In this document: piece after piece, positions 343-47,029 of the stretch
How positions within the stretch are numbered: the first letter of the stretch is position 1
How the letters are laid out: every line of letters starts with the position of its first letter
Assembly: GCA_030631995.1 (NCBI GenBank)
Contig: DAOVKB010000002.1
Location: 1-47,029 of the forward strand
DNA length: 47,029 nucleotides
From: an archaeon
GTDB taxonomy: Archaea; Asgardarchaeota; Heimdallarchaeia; Heimdallarchaeales; Heimdallarchaeaceae
Direction: 5' to 3'
The notes under the pieces: model-generated
The model's database searches: none
What the model was told of the DNA's origin: nothing
The model's input: the letters and a program-made list of their open reading frames with translations, nothing else
Made by a program: the position numbers and the translations under genes

Positions 343-2373
343 ATGTATAATATGAAAAAGAAAGATTTTGTTAATATTATAATTCTAGGGATGTTATTAT
401 TCACAACAATAAAGACATCTTACACAACAAATGGATTAATTTTAACTAATGATAATTCCGAAACTACACCAGATGCTATTACAATACAAACGTTTACTGG
501 AACAATAAATGTAACTACAATAGTAGGACCAGATTATGCTTATGATGTAATTCACAAAGCGTTAAAACATGCTCAAACATCAATTCATCTTGAAGTATAT
601 ACACTATCTAGTGAGCCTTTAGTTAATGAATTAATTAGAGCTGATAGAAGAGGAGTGGAAGTAATAGTTCAGCTTTCCGATGATAGAGTAAACTCTTATG
701 AAGATGCTTATACAGAAGAAGCTGCATATAGACTAAAGAAACAAGGAATTGACGTTTACTGGACTAATGGAACTGAATTTGTTTTCACACATGCAAAATT
801 CTGGATAATCGATGGAATAGAAACATTCGTTTACTCTGGCAATTGGGCACCTTCAAGTATTCCTCAATATTCAGGCGCTAGAACAAATAGAGAGATGGGT
901 TTTCTGTTCAATCATGCCGGAATTGCAGCATATTTTGAAAATGTGTTTATTGCTGATGGATTAATCTCTACTCCATATGCACTTGGTTCAGGTGGCGGTA
1001 GTTTACAAGGTAATGAAACAACCGGAACTTATACGCCCGTTTCTTCAGTAGATACATTTAATGAATATACAGAAGTTACACCTATTTTTGCACCAGACAA
1101 TAGTTATGAACTACTCTCTGGGATCATTGATGCTGCTACAACTTCTATAGATTTAGAATTACAATACATGAAATTTGATTGTGATTTGCTAGATGATGTA
1201 TTAGATGCTGCACTACGAGGTGTTTCTATAAGAGTTCTAATTCCAGAACCAGGAGTCGCAAATGAAAATGTTACTGAAACTCTCATCAGTCACGGCATAC
1301 AGGTTAAGTTCTTCAAAGGTTTAGGACATAATCACAACAAGTTTGTTTTAGTTGATGGTGAGACCGTACAAATTTCAAGCATTAATTGGTCAAATAACTC
1401 TGTTGACTATAATAGAGAATCAGGAGCTATTGTAAAGAACTCTAATATCGCAGCATACTACGAAGATGTTTTTGACGAGGATTGGGTTGTTAGTGAAACA
1501 CCTACTGGTTTTGCAAAACCTGTAGATCTTGTATCACCAAAAGGAGGAGGAATCGCAGATGGCAATTTTAACTTCCAAGCATCATTTTCTGTTAATACAT
1601 ATACATCAGGAGAACTACTCATAGATTCAGTTTCAGTTCATACATGGGCCAGTCCTGTTGGAATTGTTGGTCACATAGTAGATACTACTGCTTATGCAGA
1701 TGGAATTCATACAGTGAAGGTTATAGGAACCCCCACAGCAGGATCACCTATAGAAATCGAGAAAAATATCAACATAGTGAATACAGCTGATTGGAATCTT
1801 CTAATTACGGAAGTAAGATACGATGCCAATACTGAACCAGATGGTGAATTCGTTGAGATTTACAATTATTTTAGTTTCGCACTAGCCATTGAAGGATGGA
1901 TACTGACGGATAATGAGGGGAAATATACTATACCAGATGGAGCTCAGATAAATGCGAATGAAGTATTGGTATTTGCACAAAGCAGTTCAACTTATGTAAG
2001 TGAGATGAGTGCATTAGGAATTACTGTATCAGCTGCTGATTATGGATTAGGCGATATTGCTCTAGCAAATACAGGCGATGAAATAATACTCAAAGATCCA
2101 GATGAGGGTATAAAAGATGCGGTTGCATGGGGATCAGGATCTGTATCCGGAGTTATCAGTTGGTCTGGAAGTGCAACAGGAGAAGACGAGACATTACAGC
2201 GAAGTCCACCTAATGAAGATTCAGATGATTGTGATGCAGATTTTGTAATAGATACGCCTACACCTGGAATAGTAGAACCAGATGGTCCAGGATTTACTAC
2301 TTTGCTAGTTTTACCAATAATAACAATTGCTGCATTAGTTGTAGTATTCTTAAGAAGAAAAATACAGAGATAA
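343..2373 (+). CDS. secreted/anchored phospholipase D-family protein with lamin-tail domain and PGF-CTERM-like anchor
   Basis: N-terminal hydrophobic segment (FVNIIILGMLLFTTIKT). Two HxKx4D motifs (HAKFWIID nt 790-813; HNKFVLVD nt 1333-1356). LTD-like segment LLITEVRYDANTEPDGEFVEIYN...GWILTDNEG (~1798-2200). C-terminus is PGF (nt 2287-2295) + TTLLVLPIITIAALVVVFL + RRKIQR. Confidence 0.8.
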   Translation: MYNMKKKDFVNIIILGMLLFTTIKTSYTTNGLILTNDNSETTPDAITIQTFTGTINVTTIVGPDYAYDVIHKALKHAQTSIHLEVYTLSSEPLVNELIRADRRGVEVIVQLSDDRVNSYEDAYTEEAAYRLKKQGIDVYWTNGTEFVFTHAKFWIIDGIETFVYSGNWAPSSIPQYSGARTNREMGFLFNHAGIAAYFENVFIADGLISTPYALGSGGGSLQGNETTGTYTPVSSVDTFNEYTEVTPIFAPDNSYELLSGIIDAATTSIDLELQYMKFDCDLLDDVLDAALRGVSIRVLIPEPGVANENVTETLISHGIQVKFFKGLGHNHNKFVLVDGETVQISSINWSNNSVDYNRESGAIVKNSNIAAYYEDVFDEDWVVSETPTGFAKPVDLVSPKGGGIADGNFNFQASFSVNTYTSGELLIDSVSVHTWASPVGIVGHIVDTTAYADGIHTVKVIGTPTAGSPIEIEKNINIVNTADWNLLITEVRYDANTEPDGEFVEIYNYFSFALAIEGWILTDNEGKYTIPDGAQINANEVLVFAQSSSTYVSEMSALGITVSAADYGLGDIALANTGDEIILKDPDEGIKDAVAWGSGSVSGVISWSGSATGEDETLQRSPPNEDSDDCDADFVIDTPTPGIVEPDGPGFTTLLVLPIITIAALVVVFLRRKIQR

Positions 2374-11989: not shown

Positions 11990-13852
11990 TTATTTTCTCT
12001 TTTTAAACTTCAGATTACTACTTATCAAAATCCCCATTGCGACGAGAGCGATCAGAACTGAAACAAAGTTATTAGGAGTAGGTTCTGTTGGTGTCTCTGT
12101 AGACAGTACAACATTGTAGATTAACATTAAGCTTTGATTATTTCCTGCATGATCTTGAACAGTTATTGTTACATTGTAAGTACTACTTTCAACGTAGTAA
12201 TGAAATGCATAATGCTCATCAGTCACATTTTGAACAATACCATCTCCCCAATCAATGTGTACAAATTTTACTCCAGTATAAGCGTCAGAATACTCGAAAC
12301 GAAGTTCAACTAATCCATCCACTATGTCTCTTGAAGTATTTGTATTCGATGTTACGTCAAGAAAAGGATTTTGGAAGTCCAAATAAATCAGTTGTGTTAG
12401 ATTATTTGCTGTTCCCAGAGAATTGTTTACAAATAGAGTGTAATTATAGAAAGCTGCAATACCAAATGGATAATCGTATACAATTGTATCGTTACTCTCG
12501 AGAGATAGAGTATCTAAAGGTGTTCCATCTCCATAATCGAATGTTGCTTCAGTAATATTTCCTCGAACTAATTCGACCTCATAATAGAAGGTTACAGTTT
12601 CATTATTTGTGTAAATTCCATCTTTAGGAGTGAGAGATAGTACAGGAGTGGAATCGTAGATTTCTACTCTGTGAAGGTTACCTGTAGTTTCGTTATAATG
12701 TTCTCCTTTGTAAATATTGTATGCTTCAAAGTAGATAACATTTCCAACATTAAAAGGACCAATTGTTGCATTAAATTTCCTGATTGTGCTATTGTATCCA
12801 TCACTATCAATATCAAAATATGTTGTGTTTAGAGATGCATCTACTAACGTCCATGGAACTATTTTTGTATTGTTATCTGAACTTTCAACAACATAATAAC
12901 TAATGCCAAATGTTTCGAATTCTGTTGCATTTATTGATGTAATATTTAACCTAATAGGGTCAACTTCTGTATGTCTTTCATTTAATACTGTCTTAGATTC
13001 AAAATGGAAACCATTATCTATTCTGTAGATATTTAGCTTATCTTTTATCAATCCTTCATCCCAAGTATCCCACCCATGCGAGTTATTTGCAGTGAAATAG
13101 AGTGTTCTCGTTGTAAATGTTATTGTCGTGTTATAGACTTCATAGGCTTCATGAGTTTCATTTACCCAATCCATTTTGATGAATGTTACATCAGCATCGA
13201 AAACAGTCAGTGATGCGTTAGAGATTTTATCACGATAAAGTGAAGTTACTAAGGTTATATTTTCATTCTCTCCTCCTTCGAATACTTTGAAACGAATAAC
13301 AATTGTGTGATTTGTATAATTAGCAGGAGAATAATATACCTTATCTACACCTGTACTAGTCGCATTGATAATTTTATCAAATTGTGGTGGAAGAATTTCA
13401 TTCACATAAAGATAGTGCCAAGGACCTAGATGAGCAAAGTAATCTACTTCTTCATAGGTTCCATTTGTGATTTCCCCAATCCACCCATATGCTTTGAAGT
13501 ATGAGTGTTCTGTCAAATTGAATGTACCTGTATAGTACGATCGTACTTCAAAAGAATTAGAGAAGTTTAACTCCAAACCCTGATTTATATCTAGAGTAAA
13601 ATTGGAACCTTCACCAACTAATATAACGCTATCAACTCCAACATATCGCTTAACAGAATATTCAACAGTAATCAGAGTTCCAGCTGGATAATTCTGACCA
13701 GGAAAGCCTTCAAAACCTTCTGCTGTTAAACTTTCAAGCCTTGGTTTAGCTTCATCTTCTGCTATAACGTTATTTGTGTTTGTAACACTGAATACAACAC
13801 TCACCAGTATTGAAGTCAATAATAGTAGGGTTAGTGATTTCTTTAGTCTCAT
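11990..13852 (-). CDS. secreted, C-terminally anchored surface protein with PKD-like modules
   Basis: Signal peptide MRLKKSLTLLLLTSILVSVVFS. PKD-type motifs FDYGDGT and IDWGDGI near the C-terminus. Many N-x-S/T sequons. T/P linker ETPTEPTP + TM (FVSVLIALVAMGILISS) + KFKKRK tail. Confidence 0.7.
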   Translation of the reverse strand: MRLKKSLTLLLLTSILVSVVFSVTNTNNVIAEDEAKPRLESLTAEGFEGFPGQNYPAGTLITVEYSVKRYVGVDSVILVGEGSNFTLDINQGLELNFSNSFEVRSYYTGTFNLTEHSYFKAYGWIGEITNGTYEEVDYFAHLGPWHYLYVNEILPPQFDKIINATSTGVDKVYYSPANYTNHTIVIRFKVFEGGENENITLVTSLYRDKISNASLTVFDADVTFIKMDWVNETHEAYEVYNTTITFTTRTLYFTANNSHGWDTWDEGLIKDKLNIYRIDNGFHFESKTVLNERHTEVDPIRLNITSINATEFETFGISYYVVESSDNNTKIVPWTLVDASLNTTYFDIDSDGYNSTIRKFNATIGPFNVGNVIYFEAYNIYKGEHYNETTGNLHRVEIYDSTPVLSLTPKDGIYTNNETVTFYYEVELVRGNITEATFDYGDGTPLDTLSLESNDTIVYDYPFGIAAFYNYTLFVNNSLGTANNLTQLIYLDFQNPFLDVTSNTNTSRDIVDGLVELRFEYSDAYTGVKFVHIDWGDGIVQNVTDEHYAFHYYVESSTYNVTITVQDHAGNNQSLMLIYNVVLSTETPTEPTPNNFVSVLIALVAMGILISSNLKFKKRK

Positions 13853-14590: not shown

Positions 14591-15895
14591 ATGAAAGCGA
14601 TGAATGATTTGGAAAATTACTTTAAAGAAAATGGGATAGAATTTATACAATTTCAATTTTCAACTATTTTTGGGGAACTAAAATCTGTAGAATTTCCTGT
14701 TGACATTTGGAAAGAAATGAGAAATGGTACTGGAGTAGATGGTTCTTCATTAGGTTTTCTTAAAACTGAACAGAGCGATATGAAAATTATTCCAGATTTT
14801 GATACTTTAGCCATACTTCCCTGGGAACCAAGAGTAGCGAGATTTATCTGTGACATTTATGGAAATGATGGTAAACCTCATCCTACTGATCCTCGAAGTA
14901 TTTTGAAGAGAGTAATTGAACAAGCAAAGAAACTAGGATATGAATACAAAACAAGACCTGAACTGGAATGGTTTTTCTTAGATTTCGAATTCGATCCAAT
15001 AGATTATGGTCAGTATATGGACATACTTCCTTTTGATATGATGGGATCTTTAAGAAGAGACATAGCAGCTGATATGAAAAAGATGGGAATACCTGTAAAA
15101 ACAATTCATCATGAATGTGGAGCTGGACAACAAGAGATTGAATTCTTAGTTTTAGATGCACTCAAACAAGCTGATAATGTTCAAACAGCAAAAATGATTA
15201 TAAAAGCTGATTCAGCTTTTGAAGAGATTATTGGTACTTTTATGCCTAAACCTTTTCCTGATCAAGCTGGGAATGGATTTCATATTCATCAATATTTAGT
15301 CAAAGATGGAAAAGATATTTTCTCTGATAGGGAGAAGGGTATAAGTGAAGAACTCAGATATTTTATTGGAGGAATTTTGGAACATGTGGATGCAATGACA
15401 GCAATTCTCAATCCGACGACAAACTCCTATAAGAGACTAGTACCAGGTCATGAAGCACCTGTATTCAAATCATGGGGTGTAGCTAACAGAACTGCATTAA
15501 TTCGCATTCCTGGTTATGAAAAGAATGCAAGATTAGAATATAGAGCAACTGATGGTGCTGCGAATATTTACTTAGCTTTTGCGCTCCTATTAGCAGCAGG
15601 ATTAGACGGCATTAAAAGAAAAATTGAGCCTATTTCATCAACAACCAGAAACATAGAAGATTTATCTTCTCAAGAAAGAGAAGAAATGGGAATAACTAAG
15701 CTTCCTGAAAATCTAAATGAAGCACTAGATCATTTAGGAGAAAGTGCTTTTGTTAAAGAAGTTCTTAATGATGAGATCCTAGAAATTTTCTTGAGTGTAA
15801 AACGTAAAGAATACAAAGAATATCTTGAAGCAAAAAATAAAGGTGAAGAACAGGAATGGGATTGGGAGTATCAAACATATTTGGAAAGAGTATGA
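14591..15895 (+). CDS. glnA: glutamine synthetase, type I
   Basis: DGSSLGF, HHECGAGQQEIEF, NPTTNSYKRLVPGHEAP, RIPG...RLEYR. 434 aa. Confidence 0.9.
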   Translation: MKAMNDLENYFKENGIEFIQFQFSTIFGELKSVEFPVDIWKEMRNGTGVDGSSLGFLKTEQSDMKIIPDFDTLAILPWEPRVARFICDIYGNDGKPHPTDPRSILKRVIEQAKKLGYEYKTRPELEWFFLDFEFDPIDYGQYMDILPFDMMGSLRRDIAADMKKMGIPVKTIHHECGAGQQEIEFLVLDALKQADNVQTAKMIIKADSAFEEIIGTFMPKPFPDQAGNGFHIHQYLVKDGKDIFSDREKGISEELRYFIGGILEHVDAMTAILNPTTNSYKRLVPGHEAPVFKSWGVANRTALIRIPGYEKNARLEYRATDGAANIYLAFALLLAAGLDGIKRKIEPISSTTRNIEDLSSQEREEMGITKLPENLNEALDHLGESAFVKEVLNDEILEIFLSVKRKEYKEYLEAKNKGEEQEWDWEYQTYLERV

Positions 15896-15998: not shown

Positions 15999-18074
15999 AT
16001 GATTGAACTGAGTTACGAGCGAGAAGATGTTTATAACATCAATTTTAAAAAACTGGAACTTCCTGAGCCCAAATTATCAAAAACTAAACGAGCTCTGGTC
16101 CTAACGCATTTATTTCTCTATCGTAATTTAAATCTAGCAGATTTTTCTGAGAAACATGAGATCAATTTAGAAGCAATTAAAGAGTACATCCAAGTACTGA
16201 TACAGTCGCTAACTATCAGAGGTTATTACAGAAAAGATAGATTTGTTATAGCATCAATCTATAAGTTTCCAAATATAAATCCAGGTCGTTTAACCTCTAT
16301 TCGAAAAGCTATCCTAGGTTTATTAGCATATTCAAAAAAAATAAGCCTAAAAGAGATAACTGGGATAGTTAATATAAAGCTCGATATTCTGTTAGATCAT
16401 CTGAAGTATTTCATTAGCAGAGGATTGTTAATAGGACAAATTAAAAACAAAGAACTAATTTCAAATTGGATATGGAAACCTCCCGAAAAAGTTACAATTT
16501 CTGCAGAAGATACTTTTATTGTGGGAGTTTGTATGATGCTAAGAGATGCTGAATTGGCAAACGTAGCAAAGCACACAGGTTTTTCCAGAGAGCAGGTATT
16601 TACAAAATTGTCTTTTCTAATGCTTTATAGAAAACTAGAAGCTCAGTTTGAGATTCGATCAAAATTAGTTGGAGCTTCAAGTGTTTTCATTAACGTGAAA
16701 AAATATCATATTTCACCTAGAATCCTCCCACTAGCTGCCTTACAAGGAATTGAGAAAGAAATCGCTGGATACACAATACTAAGAAAAACTGTTTCAATTA
16801 AAGAATTAGTAAAGTTTGTAGGCAAGGAACCCATAGAAATAATGAAAATTTTAGCTCTTCTTACTGCAAGAGGAACTTTTCAAGTAGTATTTACAGAAAA
16901 AAATTATATTAATCCAATTGTTATTCCTGAATTAAAGCCAAAACGGACCATTGAGGAAATGGCTACTCTTTCATTCTTTAATTATGAAGCTTTATTTGGA
17001 TTGTTATCTACTCAAGACAGAATCCCTCTTAAAAAACTAGGAGCTTTCATGAATAGAACAACTGGTGAGGTTTTAGAAGGTGTTATAACACTTCTTTTGG
17101 AAGGATTTATTTCTGGGACAATAAAAGGTACTACTCTTTATGTTGAAAGTATCCGTAGATATAGTAGAACACAAGAAGGAACTCTAGATAGATGGGAAAA
17201 GATCCTACTTGGAATGGTTATTGCTAAAAAACAGATTAATGTCAGAGATATAGCTTTAGCACTAGGGGTAGACAAAATCTATGCTAAAGAAAGGTTGTAT
17301 GGTTTTTATGGTAAAGGTCTGATAAAAGGCACAATTGTGGGAAATCGATTAGAACCAGATGAGATTCCTATCTTTCCTCCTCTCACACAATTAGAAGATC
17401 TTCCCATTCATTATCAAGAAATATTCGGATTTATTACTGCGAATAAGAAAGTATCATTAACCAGCATTCAGAAAAACTGGAGCAAATCCCTTAATGCGTC
17501 TCGAAATATAGTCTACGAATTAACTGGTTCAGGTTTAGTTAATTTGGAAATGAGAGGTAGTTCTCTAAATGTATTATCTTATCAAAAATTTCTACCTAAT
17601 AGAGAATTGGAGGAGTTAGGAGATAATTATGTCCGGATAGTTAATGAGATAGAAAAATCAAGAAGGAAAAAAATCAGACTCAATATTATTGCTGCAGATC
17701 TCTCTTTAATGGAACAAGATATTTTTAGAATCATTTGTCAATTACTTGCTCATGGATATTACAATGGAATTCTTACTAGCACATACTTTGAGAGGAAAGG
17801 ACAACTCACCTTACCATCATTAAAGATGCACTGTTTGAACTGTGGGCATATAATCAAGTCAGCATATGACCCATGTAACAACTGTGAAGAAATTCCTTCA
17901 AAATGTTCAGTCTGTCAAGGTTTAATTAAAAGAGGGGATAGCATCCTAGAATGTCCAAATTGCTCCAATGTTGCTCATGACGATCATATGGAGCAGTGGA
18001 TGAAAATAAAGAATGAATGTCCCATGTGTAAAACAAAGATATCAAAAAGAAATCTTAAATCGTATTCAGTATAA
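15999..18074 (+). CDS. tandem winged-helix (PCI-like) repeat protein with C-terminal zinc ribbon and RING-H2-like finger
   Basis: About 8 repeats of the WH pattern (e.g. ISLKEITGIVNIKLDILLDHLKYFISRGLLIGQIKNKEL). CLNC-x10-CNNC at nt 17832-17885. C-x2-C-x12-C-x2-C-x4-H-x2-H-x3-W-x6-CPMC at nt 17904-18029. Confidence 0.6.
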   Translation: MIELSYEREDVYNINFKKLELPEPKLSKTKRALVLTHLFLYRNLNLADFSEKHEINLEAIKEYIQVLIQSLTIRGYYRKDRFVIASIYKFPNINPGRLTSIRKAILGLLAYSKKISLKEITGIVNIKLDILLDHLKYFISRGLLIGQIKNKELISNWIWKPPEKVTISAEDTFIVGVCMMLRDAELANVAKHTGFSREQVFTKLSFLMLYRKLEAQFEIRSKLVGASSVFINVKKYHISPRILPLAALQGIEKEIAGYTILRKTVSIKELVKFVGKEPIEIMKILALLTARGTFQVVFTEKNYINPIVIPELKPKRTIEEMATLSFFNYEALFGLLSTQDRIPLKKLGAFMNRTTGEVLEGVITLLLEGFISGTIKGTTLYVESIRRYSRTQEGTLDRWEKILLGMVIAKKQINVRDIALALGVDKIYAKERLYGFYGKGLIKGTIVGNRLEPDEIPIFPPLTQLEDLPIHYQEIFGFITANKKVSLTSIQKNWSKSLNASRNIVYELTGSGLVNLEMRGSSLNVLSYQKFLPNRELEELGDNYVRIVNEIEKSRRKKIRLNIIAADLSLMEQDIFRIICQLLAHGYYNGILTSTYFERKGQLTLPSLKMHCLNCGHIIKSAYDPCNNCEEIPSKCSVCQGLIKRGDSILECPNCSNVAHDDHMEQWMKIKNECPMCKTKISKRNLKSYSV

Positions 18075-18088
18075 ATTGAGGTTTTTAT

Positions 18089-18412
18089 GTGGAATTAAAT
18101 GATATTATAGATGAGTTTAGAGATTTTTTAGATGAGAGAGGATGGTTATCTTTTTCTCCAAATGATGTTTTCATACATCTAATTGAGGAACTAGGTGAGA
18201 TAGGTAAATATCTCCTTTTTCTATCGGAATATAAAACAGAAAATCAAGGTCATGAAAAACCACCTAGCGCTAACCTTTCGAGAGAATTTGCTCAAGCTTT
18301 CTCTCTTTTTATGCAGTTATGCATATTGCTAAATATAGATTTGGAGAAGACCTGGTTGGAAGAAATAAAAATAATGAAAGCAAGATTTCCAATAAACGAT
18401 AAACACAAATAG
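18089..18412 (+). CDS. MazG-like nucleotide pyrophosphohydrolase-fold protein
   Basis: GTG start. IEELGEIGKYL fits the EExxE helix of all-alpha NTP-PPases. 107 aa is typical of single-domain MazG-like proteins. Confidence 0.5.
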   Translation: MELNDIIDEFRDFLDERGWLSFSPNDVFIHLIEELGEIGKYLLFLSEYKTENQGHEKPPSANLSREFAQAFSLFMQLCILLNIDLEKTWLEEIKIMKARFPINDKHK

Positions 18413-25074: not shown

Positions 25075-25917
25075 TCAAGTGAAAAAAGCAATCAAGAACC
25101 AAGAAATTGCTATCATAACAACAGCAATAATGTTGAGAACTGCGTAAAGATTGAATGTTTCTTCATTATATATCTGAGTAACATTGTCACTAATCATGTT
25201 TAGTTTCTTATCAATAGATTCTAAAATCTCCTTACTTTCTCCAACATCCACAAGCTCTTCTCTTGTCTCACTTAATATATCAACAAAACCATGAAGCAGT
25301 TTTTTATCAGTTTCGAGAAGTTTTGGGGAGACAATAGTTTCCAGTTTTTGATGAAGCTTCCTAACTTCTTCCTTTGTAAGTTGGGGAATATCCCATTTGA
25401 TATCAACTTCTACAAGATTAGATAAGTGTTGAGTAAGATCATCGAAATATATACCATAAGGAACTGCTTTGTAATCAAGGTCATCAATTAATCTAAAAAA
25501 TTGGATCTCCAAATCCTTCTGTTGTGAGGTGTTATAGTATTTAGAAGGGTCTACAACAAGGGCAACAGCATGTGAGAACAAGTTTTGGTATATTCTTTGA
25601 GTATTTTTATCAGTTCCTGAGAGAAAACAACCAAACGATGGATGAGTGTGAGCCCACCCAACTATTGTTTCATTTCCATCTCTTTTCTGTAGATTTCCAA
25701 CAATCTGAACAAGAGCTTCATCGTCTATAGCAACAAATGTGGATGTTTGTTTTTGACTTCCTGTGTCAAAATCTGTTATAATTAACGTTTCTCCATCCTT
25801 ATCCAAATATCCCAATAGAACACCTGCTGATTCTTTAGTTGGTTCTATTGAATCAACTGACAATATTTTTGCCAAAACATATGGGGAAATCAAGATTTCT
25901 TTTCTATATTGAGTCAT
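25075..25917 (-). CDS. membrane-anchored JAB1/MPN/Mov34 (JAMM, MPN+) metalloprotease
   Basis: E-x2-G (ESAGVLLG). Complete JAMM motif HTHPSFGCFLSGTD (HxHx7Sx2D) at nt 25609-25650. C-terminal TM LYAVLNIIAVVMIAISWFLIAFF. Confidence 0.8.
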   Translation of the reverse strand: MTQYRKEILISPYVLAKILSVDSIEPTKESAGVLLGYLDKDGETLIITDFDTGSQKQTSTFVAIDDEALVQIVGNLQKRDGNETIVGWAHTHPSFGCFLSGTDKNTQRIYQNLFSHAVALVVDPSKYYNTSQQKDLEIQFFRLIDDLDYKAVPYGIYFDDLTQHLSNLVEVDIKWDIPQLTKEEVRKLHQKLETIVSPKLLETDKKLLHGFVDILSETREELVDVGESKEILESIDKKLNMISDNVTQIYNEETFNLYAVLNIIAVVMIAISWFLIAFFT

Positions 25918-25962: not shown

Positions 25963-27012
25963 TCAAAGAAAATTGTTCACTTCGTTGCTTATTGGGTGTT
26001 CTGTTAAGAAATTAATCGCTAATTCTTTCAGTAGAAGGACATCAGGATGGTCAACTGGTATATTCAGTGTGCTAGTTTTATCTATGATATCCATCATAGC
26101 CCAAACTGATAGAAAGAAATCAATTGGATAACCCTTTGGATACAGCTGTTCAAGTGGAACGTTATTTATCTCTTTCAGATGAACATTATATCCTTCTATA
26201 AATTGCTTAATGTCAGAGATCGTACTTATCAGAGTTCTTGATGTTCGGTATTCGAGTAAAGCTTGTCTACCAAAGAAAGTACCAATATCCTCAAAACGGT
26301 CGAATGATCCTTGCATCCAGAATGTTGGGTCTATAATAGCAATATTGACGATTTCTCCTTGAGGAGTTGTTCTTATCATTAAATTGCTTTGATGAAAATC
26401 TCCGAATGAATCACTACCACCTTGAGAATTCGACACCATCTCAAGAAGATCTTTGGATTTCTCCATTATTTCTTGCTCGATTTCTTCTCCTCCAAAAATA
26501 GTTAAAATCAATCGTCGATATAATTCTTCATAAATGTCAGTGATGACTGATCTTGGCTTTCCTTCATGAATTATGGATAAAACATATCCTGCCCAGAAAC
26601 TTTTATCAAGAACGCTATCAGCATCCTCATAATTTACTCCAGTTATGCCTTCATATGCTATAAATGTAGGTTGTTTCAGATTCACATAGATGTATCTAGG
26701 TACCTGAACAAATGATCGAGTTGAGAACTTTTTTTCAAGAAATGATGAATTTTTTATCTCAGTTACAACATCAGTTGAGCTTTCAATAAATTTTATCGCA
26801 AGCTTACTTTTGTGCTTTCCCACTACAGATGTATAAAAAACGTCTACTACATATACATCTCCAAATCTCCCACTAGCTTTGTAATATTCAATATCGTCAA
26901 TTTTAACTTCTGTAATTTCGCTTCCCTTTTCTTTGCGTGCTTCATCTACTAGATAATAAGAGAATGAACTAACTAGTTGGATTAACAGTGGCTTCACAGA
27001 AGAGTTCATCAA
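25963..27012 (-). CDS. eukaryotic-like protein kinase-fold protein (atypical)
   Basis: Gly-loop-like ASGRFGDVYVV, VAIK-like LAIKFIE, catalytic-loop-like GDFHQSNLM (D-x4-N), and IAIIDPTF in place of DFG. Confidence 0.55.
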   Translation of the reverse strand: MMNSSVKPLLIQLVSSFSYYLVDEARKEKGSEITEVKIDDIEYYKASGRFGDVYVVDVFYTSVVGKHKSKLAIKFIESSTDVVTEIKNSSFLEKKFSTRSFVQVPRYIYVNLKQPTFIAYEGITGVNYEDADSVLDKSFWAGYVLSIIHEGKPRSVITDIYEELYRRLILTIFGGEEIEQEIMEKSKDLLEMVSNSQGGSDSFGDFHQSNLMIRTTPQGEIVNIAIIDPTFWMQGSFDRFEDIGTFFGRQALLEYRTSRTLISTISDIKQFIEGYNVHLKEINNVPLEQLYPKGYPIDFFLSVWAMMDIIDKTSTLNIPVDHPDVLLLKELAINFLTEHPISNEVNNFL

Positions 27013-27210
27013 ATTATAATTATTTGTTAGATTATTAAAGTTTAGTTTATTATTAGCAGAAGTTAAATAAACAATAATAATAGAACTTGTAGATGATTTT
27101 TCATTAACAATGATTCATTAATAGTTTTCACTTAGAGTTTAAAAAAATTTAATAACATATGAGTTGTATTGTGAGTAGAGATTCCTTAATTTCAATAGTG
27201 TGGTTACCTC

Positions 27211-44286: not shown

Positions 44287-47029
44287 TTACCTTAATCTTT
44301 TACGCAGTAGAATATTAGCATCAACCATTTCAAATATTTTTGAAAGCACTTCTTCCATTGAGTGTTTGCTGAAAAATTCAAGTGCTACACTTATTGATAC
44401 TTCATTATAATCTTTAATGAATTTATATAGTCTTTGACTGAAAGTGTCTAATTTTAGCACATCTTTTTCTTTTACTGCATTTACAGAGAGAGGATGTAAT
44501 GTCCAAACGAATAGACTTTCAGATAATGTATCAATTATTGATCTTTCATTTGCTAGAAATTCATCTGTTTTGCCATCCCAAGTTGTGCTCACAAGTGCGT
44601 GGAATTTCTTCTCAAACCAATCAACAAAGCTTGCTATGCCTGTTTCTACATCTACTGAGATGTCACCAGTGCTAAACAAATAGGTTGTTATACAATCTGT
44701 TCCTGCACTAGAGACGCAGAATTGTCCATAATCGATTTTTCTAACTGCTCCAGCTTCTCCCCCACTTATCTCACCACCCATACCTGAAACAGCTTGTAGG
44801 AAACCAGAAACTAACGAAGAATCTACTGATATTTCTCCACCGAGATCCCATTCATATATAGGTAATCCGGTTTCATTGTGAACAACGATTACTTTTCTCA
44901 TAGAGATTACACTGGTAAGAACCTTTGAAATTTTATCCAGATATCTTCGCTTCTTAGCTTTCTTTCTTTGTTTTCTTGGTCTAATTACTGCGAAATGTAT
45001 TGTTAAGTATAATAACACCGCAGCAATTGCTGCTAAAACTGCAGCCATGTATGGAGTATATGCTTGGAAGAAGAACAACAGTATCGCCATAAAACTAGCT
45101 GAAGCAGTAACAACTTCTTCCTCAACTGATGTTTTGGACAGAACAATAGCATCGTTTGATGCTATATATTCAGCAGAATATCTGATTCCTACAACTCTCC
45201 ATGGAATAAGAATGTCGTCAGTAAATGCAATAATATCATCACCTACTAACTCCAGATCCACTAAAATCCAGTATGTCATTTCAGTTCCGTTTGCAAAAAT
45301 GAATGTATAAGTAATATTAACTGAACCTAGTGCAAGATCAGGAAGATATCTGACACTCATGCTAGATAAGGCAGACACATCAGCATAAGAAGCATTACCT
45401 ACTGTAATTTGGAATTGGAAAGTTTCTAATTGCCTGACTTCTCCGACAATCTCAACTTCCAAATCAAAGTCTGAAGCTGGATTAAATACCAAAGTTATAG
45501 TTATGATCTGTGACACGTAACCATATTTAGATAGGGTTATCACTATAACCAGTGTTTGTCCTACAACTGCTGCATCATTAGGATCAAAGTAAATAACATA
45601 ATATAAACCAAGAGTAGTGACTCCATAATCATCAAAATAATCATCCAAACTCAAAGTTCCATTAATAAAGGAAAATTGTACATCTGCCGAGTTTATTGTA
45701 GAGTCATTCAAATCATCTGTATAACTAATATAGATGTCAATCTCCGTTGCATCAGCATCATTTCTAATAGTTACTTCCGTTTCTCCATCATCAGTTTCAC
45801 CTACCGTCAGTCTTTCTTCTATAGTAATGTAGATCGTAATCAGTTGAGGAAGATATCCAAACTCTATAATCGTTATATTAAGCTGATACGTTCCAGTGGT
45901 ATTGATATAGTTGAGGTAAATGAATATGAACTCACCAGTGGGTGTTAAAATGATGTCAGTTACATTGAATATTGTTGTGAAATTACCTTCATAAATTACT
46001 ATGTCAGGAGAACTAATATTAAATTGAGAATTTATATCCCAGTAACGGATTTCAACAGTAACGTTTTGATCATAATAAATAGTATTATTTGGAGTGGTTA
46101 AGAGTTCTGCATCAGTATCTACAAAGACCAATTCGATAAGGATTATATCAGTTGAATTTAAGTAACCCGTTTCACCAAATTCTATAGTGATCTGAAGCCA
46201 TTCCATGTTATAATCATTATTCTCGATTGTTATATTGTACAAACCGTCTTTCCAGTGAATGACACTAATTACTATATAATCAGTTGAATTAGTTATGATA
46301 CTGTAAATTTCATCACCTGCTATGGTTATATTTTCATTATTATCTATGTCTGTGAAATGTACAGTTATGACAAAAGGATAGCCGATTGATATACTACTAG
46401 GCGCACCAACTATTTGCAAATCTGTGGTAATGGGATCTACAGTCAAAACTCTCAAATTAAAATTCACAATAAACTCATAATTGTCTTTTGAGATATCAAG
46501 AAACACTGTGAAGGATGAAAGGGAAGCATTGTTATTCTGAATGTTGATATAATATATGTTCCCTATTGCATATGAATAATAGATGATGTTTTCTGCACTA
46601 AATAAAACACTAATTGTAGCCCCTAAGATATCTGTAGAATGATTAGTATCTACGAATTGGAAAGAAATAGTTGCATTATGATATGAGTATATTGATAAAT
46701 CTCCACCTACGTTCTGAATTTCCGTTTTCGGTGCAGTAATATCTAAAATAAAACTATCAGAAGCATATTCTTTCGTATAATTAGCTCTGTAATCATTTAT
46801 CTGAATCGCTACAAAAACATCATAGCTTCCTACGGCTAGATTATTTGTTGATGTACTTAGATCTAATTTCCAAGTTTCTTCTACAGCTCCTTGATATGTA
46901 AATGTGTAATCTATTCCGGTAGACAAATTATAAGCTACCGATGCATTGCTTATTGTAACAATCATGTCATTTAGAGGTGTTCCTGTGTCCAAGTTAACTG
47001 TTGCAGATTCATCATAAAGATACATGAAG
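44287..47029 (-). CDS. large single-pass surface protein (N-terminus beyond window) with cytoplasmic longin/roadblock-like and winged-helix-like tail
   Basis: The ORF stays open to the right window edge. About 660 aa of repetitive beta-rich modules carry many N-x-S/T sequons. TM AAVLAAIAAVLLYLTIHFAVI + RPRKQRKKAKKRR (~44940-45085). The tail is VIVVHNETGLPIYEWDLGGEISVDSSLVSGFLQAVSGMGGEI... followed by a WH-like end. Confidence 0.6.
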   Translation of the reverse strand, partial: FMYLYDESATVNLDTGTPLNDMIVTISNASVAYNLSTGIDYTFTYQGAVEETWKLDLSTSTNNLAVGSYDVFVAIQINDYRANYTKEYASDSFILDITAPKTEIQNVGGDLSIYSYHNATISFQFVDTNHSTDILGATISVLFSAENIIYYSYAIGNIYYINIQNNNASLSSFTVFLDISKDNYEFIVNFNLRVLTVDPITTDLQIVGAPSSISIGYPFVITVHFTDIDNNENITIAGDEIYSIITNSTDYIVISVIHWKDGLYNITIENNDYNMEWLQITIEFGETGYLNSTDIILIELVFVDTDAELLTTPNNTIYYDQNVTVEIRYWDINSQFNISSPDIVIYEGNFTTIFNVTDIILTPTGEFIFIYLNYINTTGTYQLNITIIEFGYLPQLITIYITIEERLTVGETDDGETEVTIRNDADATEIDIYISYTDDLNDSTINSADVQFSFINGTLSLDDYFDDYGVTTLGLYYVIYFDPNDAAVVGQTLVIVITLSKYGYVSQIITITLVFNPASDFDLEVEIVGEVRQLETFQFQITVGNASYADVSALSSMSVRYLPDLALGSVNITYTFIFANGTEMTYWILVDLELVGDDIIAFTDDILIPWRVVGIRYSAEYIASNDAIVLSKTSVEEEVVTASASFMAILLFFFQAYTPYMAAVLAAIAAVLLYLTIHFAVIRPRKQRKKAKKRRYLDKISKVLTSVISMRKVIVVHNETGLPIYEWDLGGEISVDSSLVSGFLQAVSGMGGEISGGEAGAVRKIDYGQFCVSSAGTDCITTYLFSTGDISVDVETGIASFVDWFEKKFHALVSTTWDGKTDEFLANERSIIDTLSESLFVWTLHPLSVNAVKEKDVLKLDTFSQRLYKFIKDYNEVSISVALEFFSKHSMEEVLSKIFEMVDANILLRKRLR

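What the first reader, a model, noticed from the sequence alone, without database searches (positions are those of the whole stretch)
15999..18074. Array of about eight PCI-like winged-helix repeats fused to a zinc ribbon and a RING-H2-like finger
Seen: there are repeats of ~55-75 aa, each ending in a WH recognition-helix/wing pattern. Examples are ISLKEITGIVNIKLDILLDHLKYFISRGLLIGQIKNKEL, VSIKELVKFVGKEPIEIMKILALLTARGTFQVVF, IPLKKLGAFMNRTTGEVLEGVITLLLEGFISGTIKGTTLYV, INVRDIALALGVDKIYAKERLYGFYGKGLIKGTIVGNRL, VSLTSIQKNWSKSLNASRNIVYELTGSGLVNLEMRG and IRLNIIAADLSLMEQDIFRIICQLLAHGYYNGIL. These are followed by CLNC-x10-CNNC (nt 17832-17885). Then comes C-x2-C-x12-C-x2-C-x4-H-x2-H-x3-W-x6-C-P-x-C-K (nt 17904-18029). 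Established: eight ligands with this spacing, the Trp three residues after ligand 6 and a CPxC pair for ligands 7/8 are hallmarks of cross-brace RING-H2 E3 fingers (here ligand 4 is Cys and ligand 6 is His). The repeat pattern is that of the WH subdomain of PCI proteins (proteasome lid, CSN, eIF3). Inference: this is a candidate E3-like or scaffold protein. Together with the JAMM protease about 7 kb away, it hints at a PCI/MPN/RING-type toolkit. I do not recognise a described family with a WH array plus a RING.
Basis: partly seen in the sequence, partly recalled or inferred. Interest (0 to 1): 0.8.

Follow-up and report, generated by a model that had tools for sequence, protein, structure and literature searches.

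The report
Archaeal winged-helix array RING ubiquitin ligase
A 691-residue protein from Heimdallarchaeia, archaea regarded as among the closest relatives of eukaryotes, places eight winged-helix domains in front of a zinc ribbon and a eukaryote-type RING finger, which makes it a probable large ubiquitin ligase of an uncharacterised design.

Summary
ORF 15999-18074 (+) encodes 691 aa: eight tandem winged-helix (WH) units, a C4 zinc ribbon and an eight-ligand RING. The AlphaFold2 model is confident (pLDDT 88). The eight units match each other at profile level (probability 89-99%; controls at most 24%). All 12 zinc ligands are invariant in 48 sequences, down to 22-26% identity. The finger is a RING variant (C4H2C2) whose model superposes on catalytic RING domains at 1.2-1.8 A. 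It keeps the residues that canonical RINGs use to bind and activate an E2. PCI is the best Pfam match for several units, but only its WH half is matched. UFL1 is the best structural match for the array, but specific homology was not shown. The family is confined to Heimdallarchaeia. One member genome (AB_125) is reported to encode ubiquitin and catalytic E2s. No ubiquitin genes lie nearby, and the Rpn11-like MPN gene 7 kb away is ordinary synteny. The zinc-ribbon-plus-RING cassette is a mobile Asgard module, and its sequence matches the C-terminal domains of GATOR2 and IFT-A subunits. Most likely this is a soluble RING E3 with a WH-array docking scaffold; its substrate is unknown. I rate it a new variant of a known kind.

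The parts
15999..18074 (+). Complete ORF, 691 aa: 8 WH units + zinc ribbon + RING
16080..16259 (+). WH1 (residues 28-87)
   Evidence: AF2 secondary structure; unit-vs-unit hhalign; PCI hits on this unit in P0036 and P0037
16296..16472 (+). WH2 (residues 100-158), the most basic unit (net +8)
   Evidence: strongest PCI hit of the family falls here (P0009, 3e-12)
16503..16706 (+). WH3 (residues 169-236), with a longer beta-hairpin wing
16746..16916 (+). WH4 (residues 250-306)
16923..16982 (+). Highly conserved linker between WH4 and WH5 (residues 309-328; invariant P314, T317-I318-E319, L324, S325, F327)
   Evidence: invariant columns; conservation by segment
16983..17153 (+). WH5 (residues 329-385)
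17190..17357 (+). WH6 (residues 398-453), the most conserved WH unit (FYGKGLIKG motif)
17406..17582 (+). WH7 (residues 470-528)
17622..17795 (+). WH8 (residues 542-599)
   Evidence: E3_UFM1_ligase sub-threshold hit on this unit in P0041
17832..17885 (+). C4 zinc ribbon (C612, C615, C626, C629)
   Evidence: invariant in 48 sequences; DZR and Zn_ribbon Pfam hits in relatives
17904..18032 (+). RING finger, C4H2C2 variant. Inferred site I: C636, C639, H660, H663. Inferred site II: C652, C655, C674, C677. E2-contact positions V638, W667, P675; K678 directly after the last Cys.
11990..13852 (-). Tentative partner: 620-aa PKD-domain surface glycoprotein (signal peptide, many N-x-S/T sequons, C-terminal TM anchor, KFKKRK tail). 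Its orthologue is directly adjacent to the WH-RING gene in four distant clades.
   Evidence: linkage is inferred from gene order only

Best explanation
It is a soluble, single-chain RING-type E3 ubiquitin ligase. Shown: the C-terminal 85 residues form a zinc ribbon packed next to a cross-brace RING, binding three zinc ions through 12 invariant ligands. Inferred: the RING docks a Heimdallarchaeial E2~ubiquitin thioester through V/I638, W667 and P675. K/R678, directly after the last cysteine, acts as the 'linchpin' that holds the E2~Ub in its reactive closed state, as in RNF4, Arkadia and RNF165. The zinc ribbon buttresses the RING, as the flanking zinc fingers do in LNX1 and LNX2. Shown: the preceding 600 residues are eight homologous, basic winged-helix units of the PCI/DDRGK1/UFL1 class. 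Inferred: this array is the substrate-docking scaffold that places the RING next to target lysines on a large partner. The way UFL1's WH array docks on the 60S ribosome, or Nse1/Nse3 WH pairs dock on DNA and kleisin, are working analogies. The partner is not identified. The leads are a nucleic-acid-containing target (DNA/chromatin or ribosome) and the short Lys-rich cytoplasmic tail of the surface glycoprotein encoded next to the gene.
For: RING identity: zf-RING_2 hits all 32 members. Family and cassette profiles hit solved catalytic RING-H2 domains at E from 8e-6 to 7e-10. The model superposes at 1.2-1.8 A on RNF165, Rad18, Ring1b, PCGF5 and LubX. The alignment to ARK2C/RNF165 places V638 on the CxIC Ile, W667 on the Trp, P675 on CPxC and K678 on the Arg after the last Cys. 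These positions are conserved in 46-48 of 48 sequences. WH array. The best structural matches are UFL1 (5e-7), TFIIIC tauB, SelB, RPC62/82, ESCRT-II and ScpB. All units are basic; the protein has pI 9.4. Cognate machinery exists in the lineage. AB_125 carries a family member (L010) and is reported to encode ubiquitin and two E2s with catalytic Cys (PMC9192718; PMC5654768). Archaeal E1/E2/RING cascades work in vitro (PMC5654768; bioRxiv 10.1101/2023.07.25.550441). An Rpn11-like deubiquitinase is in the window. Domain swaps point to DNA: the same array is fused to an Mrr nuclease (P0071) and to a serine recombinase (P0068).
Against: No activity data exist. The window protein scores 26.5 bits against the zf-RING_2 gathering cut-off of 27.3. 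The canonical ligand-4 His is absent. The RING part of the models has only moderate confidence (pLDDT 67-88) and zinc is not modelled. No E1, E2 or Ub gene is linked to the gene in any of 36 loci. I could not scan the source genome itself. The whole two-domain cassette matches GATOR2, SEA and IFT-A C-terminal domains best, and those RINGs are described as structural. The function of the WH array rests on analogy only.
Confidence: 0.6

Rival explanations
1. The zinc-ribbon-plus-RING cassette is a structural assembly module that dimerises or binds a partner, as in GATOR2/SEACAT and IFT-A, and has no ligase activity. The protein would then be a pure WH scaffold that oligomerises through its C-terminus.
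For: The cassette profile aligns end to end with WDR19/IFT144 (3.5e-7), WDR24 (4.3e-6), MIOS (5.5e-6), WDR59 (7.5e-5) and IFT122 (9e-5). The best whole-cassette fold matches are IFT-A (TMq 0.63, 2.9 A over 81 columns) and GATOR2/SEA. The SEA-complex paper says these RINGs 'clearly play a structural role' by heterodimerising (PMC9646525).
Against: The RING half scores higher against catalytic RING-H2 E3s (7e-10 to 1e-8) than against the structural ones. The E2-contact and linchpin positions are conserved across the whole family. The N-terminal beta-propeller and alpha-solenoid context of the eukaryotic proteins is absent. Structural and catalytic roles do not exclude each other.
Confidence: 0.2
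2. It is mainly a multi-WH nucleic-acid-binding regulator, for example of the adjacent surface-protein and protease genes. The zinc modules would serve DNA/RNA binding or partner recruitment, as in TFE/TFIIE-alpha (WH plus zinc ribbon).
For: Public sources annotate relatives as 'DNA-binding transcriptional regulator' or 'TFIIE alpha'. Pfam hits on units include TrmB, MarR, FeoC, GntR, IclR, TFIIE_alpha/beta and RPC82 HTH. Structural hits include TFIIIC tauB, RPC62/82 and the FokI recognition domain. Every unit is basic. Relatives fuse the array to a nuclease or a recombinase. The PKD gene is a conserved neighbour.
Against: The strictly conserved RING with E2-binding residues would be unexplained. 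The best Pfam match of the units is the protein-binding PCI class. No archaeal transcription factor with eight WH units is known to me. Basic composition is common in AT-rich genomes.
Confidence: 0.12
3. It is the archaeal counterpart or ancestor of UFL1 and works as a scaffold-type E3 for a ubiquitin-like modifier on the ribosome.
For: The UFL1-DDRGK1 chimera and ribosome-bound UFL1 are the top structural hits. P0079 scores above the Pfam E3_UFM1_ligase cut-off (25.5 vs 23.2) and P0041 just below it. [quoted passage not shown]
Against: Profile-profile comparison with a UFL1 alignment gives only 16% probability with several alternative registers. A1 against human UFL1 is not significant. A UFL1 HMM finds nothing significant in 191 family and relative proteins. 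TM-scores are 0.1-0.2. UFL1 has no RING. UFM1 and UFC1 are reported only in eukaryotes.
Confidence: 0.08

Closest known systems
Catalytic RING-H2 E3 domains (Arkadia/RNF111, ARK2C/RNF165, RNF4, RNF38, RNF126, EL5)
   Same: Significant profile matches (7e-10 to 1e-5). Fold match at 1.2-1.8 A. Same positions for the CxIC hydrophobic residue, the Trp, CPxC and the basic residue after the last Cys.
   Different: The ligand pattern is C4H2C2. The canonical ligand-4 His is replaced by N657 and an extra Cys three residues upstream (C652) is used. Ligand 6 is His. A C4 zinc ribbon always precedes the RING.
Archaeal small RING finger proteins (srfp) of the Caldiarchaeum and Asgard ubiquitin operons
   Same: An archaeal RING in a lineage with a eukaryote-like E1/E2/Ub system. 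Those proteins are proven E3s (PMC5654768; bioRxiv 10.1101/2023.07.25.550441).
   Different: Those are small proteins encoded inside Ub/ESCRT operons. This one is 691 aa with eight WH units, stands alone, and has no ubiquitin-system neighbours.
UFL1 (UFM1 E3 ligase) with DDRGK1
   Same: An E3 built on a tandem array of PCI-like WH domains. It is the best structural hit (5e-7). The H3-G-x-I-x-G-x-I hairpin signature is shared.
   Different: UFL1 has no RING or zinc ribbon, has about five WH units plus a composite one with DDRGK1, and has a long helical C-terminal region. Sequence homology was not demonstrated.
Nse1 of the SMC5/6 complex (KITE protein with a RING-like finger)
   Same: WH domains followed by a C-terminal variant RING in one chain. 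Other KITE proteins (ScpB, MukE) appear among the structural hits.
   Different: Nse1 has two WH units, not eight. There is no SMC_Nse1 Pfam hit, and zf-RING-like scores E=5. No kleisin or SMC context is present.
C-terminal zinc-finger-plus-RING domains of GATOR2/SEACAT (WDR24, WDR59, MIOS) and IFT-A (WDR19, IFT122)
   Same: The whole two-domain cassette (ribbon plus RING) aligns by sequence (3.5e-7 to 9e-5) and by fold.
   Different: Those sit behind a beta-propeller and an alpha-solenoid and act as structural heterodimerisation modules. Here the cassette follows a WH array.
PCI domain proteins (proteasome lid, CSN, eIF3)
   Same: The WH subdomain is the best Pfam match for several units and exceeds the gathering score in 18 of 32 members.
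   Different: No N-terminal helical-repeat half is present. There are eight copies in one chain instead of one per subunit. The hit is not significant in the window protein itself.
Tandem WH arrays of TFIIIC tau138, RPC82/RPC62 and SelB
   Same: Multi-WH arrays that bind DNA, RNA or polymerase. They are significant Foldseek hits (2e-5 to 1e-2).
   Different: No RING is present. TM-scores are low (about 0.1-0.25), so only the unit fold and the tandem arrangement are shared.

Membership tests
RING finger superfamily (Pfam zf-RING_2 / RING-H2) | Eight Cys/His zinc ligands with RING spacing, conserved across homologues | tested here: met
   C636, C639, C652, C655, H660, H663, C674 and C677 are invariant in 48 sequences
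RING finger superfamily (Pfam zf-RING_2 / RING-H2) | Score at or above Pfam's gathering threshold | tested here: inconclusive
   The window protein scores 26.5 bits against a cut-off of 27.3. P0031 reaches 27.5. All 32 members hit at E<=0.01.
RING finger superfamily (Pfam zf-RING_2 / RING-H2) | Cross-brace fold (ligand pairs 1+3 and 2+4 interleaved) | tested here: met
   The AF2 model superposes on RNF165, Rad18, Ring1b, PCGF5 and LubX at 1.2-1.8 A over 46-58 columns. Zinc is not modelled and pLDDT is about 70-82, so this is a prediction.
RING finger superfamily (Pfam zf-RING_2 / RING-H2) | Canonical C3H2C3 ligand identities (His at ligands 4 and 5) | tested here: not met
   The alignment to ARK2C puts N657 at ligand 4. 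C652 upstream substitutes for it, and ligand 6 is His. The pattern is C4H2C2.
RING finger superfamily (Pfam zf-RING_2 / RING-H2) | E2-contact residues and linchpin basic residue | tested here: met
   V/I638 in 48/48, W667 in 46/48, P675 in 48/48 and K/R678 in 46/48. The positions are equated through the alignments. The functional role of these positions is from established knowledge of RING E3s.
RING finger superfamily (Pfam zf-RING_2 / RING-H2) | E2-dependent ubiquitin ligase activity | not testable with these tools
   Needs biochemistry
PCI domain (PF01399) | WH subdomain matching the PCI profile | tested here: inconclusive
   Window protein E=0.41. 18 of 32 members exceed the gathering score, best 3e-12, on WH1, 2, 3, 5 or 8.
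PCI domain (PF01399) | N-terminal helical-repeat half preceding the WH | tested here: not met
   Only profile positions about 24-82 of 84 are matched. The AF2 model shows WH units joined by short linkers with no helical repeats.
UFL1 (PF09743 E3_UFM1_ligase) | Sequence-profile match to the UFL1 N-terminal WH array | tested here: not met
   The window protein has no hit. hhalign probability is 16%. A UFL1 HMM finds nothing significant. Only the distant relative P0079 exceeds the cut-off (25.5 vs 23.2).
UFL1 (PF09743 E3_UFM1_ligase) | Cognate UFM1/UFC1 system and DDRGK1 partner | not tested
   The literature reports UFM1 and UFC1 only in eukaryotes (PMC10183829). I did not search the genomes.
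Nse1 (SMC5/6 KITE subunit) | SMC_Nse1 tandem WH plus Nse1-type RING-like finger | tested here: not met
   No SMC_Nse1 hit at E<=10. zf-RING-like scores E=5, 7.8 bits.
GATOR2/SEACAT and IFT-A C-terminal domain | Zinc finger plus RING as one C-terminal cassette | tested here: met
   The cassette profile matches WDR19 (3.5e-7), WDR24 (4.3e-6), MIOS (5.5e-6) and WDR59 (7.5e-5) over both sub-domains.
GATOR2/SEACAT and IFT-A C-terminal domain | N-terminal beta-propeller and alpha-solenoid (protocoatomer architecture) | tested here: not met
   The N-terminal 600 residues are eight WH units.
Archaeal ubiquitin-operon small RING finger protein | Small protein encoded next to Ub, E1, E2 and Rpn11 | tested here: not met
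   It is 691 aa. No Ub, E1 or E2 gene lies within 10 kb in 36 loci. The MPN gene is 7 kb away behind about eight unrelated genes.

The most novel reading that the evidence does not exclude
This Heimdallarchaeial family is a surviving representative of the stock from which two eukaryotic inventions were assembled. First, the PCI-like WH array of the atypical E3 UFL1 (and DDRGK1) would descend from a WH-array E3 that originally worked through a RING and later lost it. Second, the Asgard zinc-ribbon-plus-RING cassette would be the precursor of the C-terminal RING modules of the protocoatomer-type complexes GATOR2/SEACAT and IFT-A. On this reading, Asgard archaea already had large, diversified, partly membrane-anchored RING E3s before eukaryogenesis.
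Probability: 0.15. Interest if true: 0.85.

Novelty: new variant of a known kind. Interest (0 to 1): 0.6.

Why it matters
The archaeal ubiquitin ligases studied so far are minimal RING proteins encoded inside ubiquitin operons. This family shows that the archaea nearest to eukaryotes also carry a large, stand-alone RING protein with a dedicated eight-domain docking scaffold. Its RING cassette is reused on dozens of other Asgard proteins, many of them predicted membrane proteins. That is the modular 'one RING, many substrate adaptors' logic of eukaryotic E3s. If the protein is active, it offers a tractable way to ask what ubiquitylation targets in Asgard cells. It also gives concrete sequences for testing where UFL1's WH array and the GATOR2 and IFT-A RING modules came from.

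Tried and rejected
1. BLASTP self-comparison found no repeats. I replaced it with profile-profile comparison plus controls.
2. UFL1 homology was tested in four ways: A1 against human UFL1, a broad family profile against a 23-sequence UFL1 profile, a UFL1 HMM against 191 proteins, and Pfam E3_UFM1_ligase. Only a structural and architectural resemblance survives. My UFL1 set was mostly metazoan, so this negative result is not final.
3. Membership of Nse1/KITE was rejected.
4. An operon with the MPN gene, or with any ubiquitin-system gene, was rejected.
5. The tightly linked downstream orf107 is a DCTPP1/MazG-type pyrophosphatase. It is inverted together with the ABC gene in Ca. Heimdallarchaeum, so it is not an obligate operon partner.
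6. The glnA adjacency is conserved in Heimdallarchaeaceae but replaced by pdxT in distant clades. I left it unexplained.
7. The supplement text held for PMC10183829 does not name its Asgard 'UFL1 homologues'. I could not tell whether they are this family.
8. I searched Eme 2023, Hatano 2022 and Makarova 2024 and found no description of this architecture.
9. There is no second cassette copy, no tRNA and no Rfam hit in the window.
10. I could not inspect model coordinates, so zinc-site geometry and the overall shape of the WH array remain unseen.
Full report
**1. What is there**

The ORF at 15999..18074 (+) is real and encodes 691 aa. Its start codon coincides with the N-terminus of about 30 homologues of nearly identical length.

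An AlphaFold2 model built on a 32-sequence alignment is confident (mean pLDDT 88.2, pTM 0.70). It shows eight consecutive H-strand-H-H-strand-strand units, which is winged-helix (WH) topology. The units span residues 28-87, 100-158, 169-236, 250-306, 329-385, 398-453, 470-528 and 542-599. A small beta-rich region with one helix follows.

**2. The repeats are real**

BLASTP sees no internal similarity. I cut a 48-sequence family alignment into the eight units and compared every pair with hhalign. All pairs match, with probability 89-98.6% and E from 2e-6 to 1e-15. The same comparisons against reversed or column-shuffled templates peak at 24% and 4%.

The zinc motifs sit exactly at the stated nucleotides. 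All 12 Cys/His ligands are invariant in 48 sequences, including relatives only 22-26% identical overall.

**3. The C-terminal finger**

- Pfam zf-RING_2 hits all 32 family members. The window protein scores 26.5 bits against a cut-off of 27.3.
- The family profile matches solved RING-H2 E3 domains (ARK2C, RNF165, Arkadia) at about 1e-5.
- A more diverse profile of the C-terminal cassette matches RNF4, ARK2C, RNF165, Arkadia, RNF126, EL5, RNF38, RLIM and Hrd1 at E from 7e-10 to 1e-6.
- A separate model of residues 600-691 (pLDDT 70; 72-82 over the RING) superposes on RNF165, Rad18, Ring1b, PCGF5 and the LubX U-box at 1.2-1.8 A.

The predicted fold is therefore the cross-brace RING fold, not two sequential knuckles.

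The alignment to ARK2C shows how the variant works. C655 takes the place of ligand 3. Invariant N657 sits where the canonical ligand-4 His would be. An extra Cys three residues upstream (C652) completes that site. H660 and H663 are ligands 5 and 6. The pattern is C4H2C2.

Four positions match residues that established work on RING E3s links to E2 binding and E2~Ub activation. V/I638 aligns with the CxIC Ile, W667 with the Trp, P675 with CPxC, and K/R678 with the Arg after the last Cys. They are conserved in 46-48 of 48 sequences.

**4. The WH units**

- PCI is the most frequent and strongest Pfam match. It passes the gathering score in 18 of 32 members (best 3e-12) and falls on WH1, 2, 3, 5 or 8 in different members.
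- Only the WH half of the PCI profile (positions about 24-82 of 84) is matched, and the model has no helical-repeat half. In the window protein itself the hit is not significant (E=0.41).
- Generic wHTH families also hit: TrmB, MarR, FeoC, TFIIE alpha/beta and the RPC82 HTH.
- Foldseek places the array nearest to other tandem-WH proteins: the UFL1-DDRGK1 chimera (5e-7), ribosome-bound UFL1, TFIIIC tauB, SelB, RPC62/82, ESCRT-II and ScpB. TM-scores are only 0.1-0.25, so the unit fold and the tandem arrangement are shared but not the overall shape.

**5. The UFL1 link**

[quoted passage not shown] I therefore tested the link directly.

- I recovered the human UFL1 sequence and verified it against PDB chain 8ohd_A, then collected orthologues.
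- Profile against profile gives only 16% probability, with several alternative registers.
- The family alignment against human UFL1 is not significant.
- A UFL1 HMM finds nothing significant among 191 family and related proteins.
- One distant relative, P0079, does exceed Pfam's E3_UFM1_ligase cut-off (25.5 vs 23.2 bits).

The resemblance is real at the level of WH class and architecture. Specific descent is not shown.

**6. Distribution**

- Close homologues (44-100% identity) all come from Heimdallarchaeota or Heimdallarchaeaceae.
- A scan of species-representative genomes found 29 loci, all Heimdallarchaeota. They include AB_125 and the complete genomes of Ca. Heimdallarchaeum aukensis and endolithica. 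The one exception is a 2.6-kb contig labelled Thorarchaeota, probably mis-binned.
- An exhaustive profile search of 1.84 billion representatives found 42 clusters at E<1e-30. These include full-length relatives of about 690 aa from MAGs labelled Heimdallarchaeota and Hodarchaeota; a longer, partial relative (P0070, 889 aa) comes from a Kariarchaeaceae MAG.
- No eukaryotic full-length relative appeared among the 150 best hits.

**7. The cassette is a mobile module**

More than a hundred further hits match only residues about 600-690, at their own C-termini. They come from Heimdall-, Loki- and Freyarchaeia, with one hit labelled Bathyarchaeia. Their N-terminal parts carry Ig-like, beta-helix, TSP3 and FG-GAP domains.

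A simple hydropathy scan finds a TM-like segment within 150 residues upstream of the cassette in 46 of 106 proteins. Many are signal peptide, ectodomain, TM helix, then cassette. Others have 7-8 TM helices followed by the cassette. This layout recalls eukaryotic transmembrane RING E3s.

The whole two-domain cassette also aligns by sequence with the C-terminal domains of IFT-A WDR19 (3.5e-7) and IFT122, and of GATOR2 WDR24, MIOS and WDR59 (4e-6 to 7.5e-5). It matches them by fold as well. The SEA-complex paper describes those RINGs as structural heterodimerisers (PMC9646525). That is the basis of the main rival explanation.

**8. Alternative partners of the WH array**

- P0071 (Hodarchaeales) has WH2-WH8 followed by an Mrr-type nuclease instead of the RING.
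- P0068 has a MerR-type HTH and a serine-recombinase domain in front of the array and the RING.
- Every unit is basic, and the protein has pI 9.4.

These facts favour a nucleic-acid-associated target but do not prove it.

**9. Gene context**

The window is housekeeping DNA and contains no E1, E2 or ubiquitin gene.

- The MPN gene at 25075-25917 is Rpn11-like. Its best match is the Caldiarchaeum Rpn11-like deubiquitinase (3e-23), followed by Rpn11 and CSN5. About eight unrelated genes separate it from the WH-RING gene.
- The whole region is syntenic in Heimdallarchaeaceae, so proximity there carries little weight.
- glnA lies directly upstream on the same strand in 24 of 29 loci. In distant clades pdxT takes that position.
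- The one neighbour that persists across deep divergence is a 620-aa PKD-domain protein. Full-length orthologues (24-27% identity) lie directly adjacent to the gene in L030/L031, L033, L035 and L036. They lie within 2-4 kb in Heimdallarchaeaceae. They are absent in L032 and L034.
- That protein has a signal peptide, dozens of N-x-S/T sequons, a C-terminal TM anchor and a KFKKRK tail. It may be a substrate, a co-regulated gene or only a persistent neighbour.

**10. Does the lineage have the machinery?**

AB_125 carries a family member (L010). It is reported to encode ubiquitin and two E2s with catalytic cysteines (PMC9192718; PMC5654768). Archaeal E1/E2/RING cascades have been reconstituted (PMC5654768; bioRxiv 10.1101/2023.07.25.550441). 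I could not scan the window's own genome.

**11. Verdict**

The most likely reading (0.6) is a soluble RING E3 ubiquitin ligase whose eight-WH array is a docking scaffold for a substrate not yet known. The rivals are a purely structural RING (0.2), a nucleic-acid-binding regulator (0.12) and a UFL1-type ancestor (0.08).

It is a new variant of a known kind. The RING and the WH fold are ordinary. The 8xWH-ribbon-RING architecture, its restriction to Heimdallarchaeia and its independence from ubiquitin operons are not described in the papers I could search.

Noticed in passing
window 25075-25917 (-): A 279-aa JAB/MPN protein. Its closest solved relatives are the Caldiarchaeum subterraneum Rpn11-like deubiquitinase (3e-23), eukaryotic Rpn11 (3e-16) and CSN5 (about 1e-12). 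It is conserved in synteny but is not an operon partner of the WH-RING gene.
   Followed up: partly
window 11990-13852 (-); L030 12177-14021; L033 10214-12094; L035 5751-7853; L036 10156-12018: A 620-aa PKD-domain surface glycoprotein (signal peptide, many N-x-S/T sequons, pI 4.6, C-terminal TM anchor, KFKKRK tail). It stays next to the WH-RING gene across clades where both proteins are only about 25% identical. In L030/L031, L033 and L036 it is followed, and in L035 accompanied, by a ~1190-1260-aa S8 peptidase.
   Followed up: partly
window 17796-18071; proteins P0085-P0191: The zinc-ribbon-plus-RING cassette is a mobile Asgard module found on more than 100 other proteins. Many have a signal peptide, an ectodomain and a TM helix, or 7-8 TM helices, before it. 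Its profile matches the C-terminal domains of IFT-A WDR19 and IFT122 and of GATOR2 WDR24, MIOS and WDR59 at 3.5e-7 to 9e-5.
   Followed up: partly
proteins P0071 (942 aa, Hodarchaeales) and P0068 (892 aa): The same WH array occurs with other effectors: a C-terminal Mrr-type restriction endonuclease domain in place of the RING (P0071), and an N-terminal MerR-HTH plus serine-recombinase (Resolvase) domain in addition to the RING (P0068).
   Followed up: partly
window 14591-15895 (+); L030 9277-9903; L033 7301-7927; L036 7348-7950: The gene directly upstream on the same strand is glutamine synthetase in 24 of 29 Heimdallarchaeaceae loci. In three distant clades it is the PdxT glutaminase. Both enzymes handle glutamine. 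This may be coincidence and is unexplained.
   Followed up: no
window 18089-18412 (+): A 107-aa ORF starting 15 nt after the WH-RING stop has no Pfam hit but resembles DCTPP1/RS21-C6 MazG-type nucleotide pyrophosphatases (9e-4). It is inverted together with the ABC ATPase gene in Ca. Heimdallarchaeum.
   Followed up: partly
window 25963-32058 and 44287-47025 (-): Six consecutive ORFs (348, 402, 366, 217, 192 and 326 aa) and a 912-aa ORF have no significant Pfam match. The 217-aa ORF (29629-30282) has TM segments and one C-terminal zinc ribbon but not the RING cassette.
   Followed up: partly
window 343-2373 (+): A 676-aa protein combines two PLD-like domains with a Lamin Tail Domain hit (PF00932, 5e-14).
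   Followed up: no
L005 (JBHLQZ010000308.1, 2.6 kb): The only non-Heimdall label among 29 genome loci is a 2.6-kb contig in a 'Thorarchaeota' MAG. It carries a 64%-identical copy plus the same downstream orf107, so it is probably a binning error.
   Followed up: no
L032 12165-12665 (-): In one distant relative (P0076) the gene next to the WH-RING gene, on the opposite strand, is a 166-aa TFIIE-alpha/TFE homologue.
   Followed up: no
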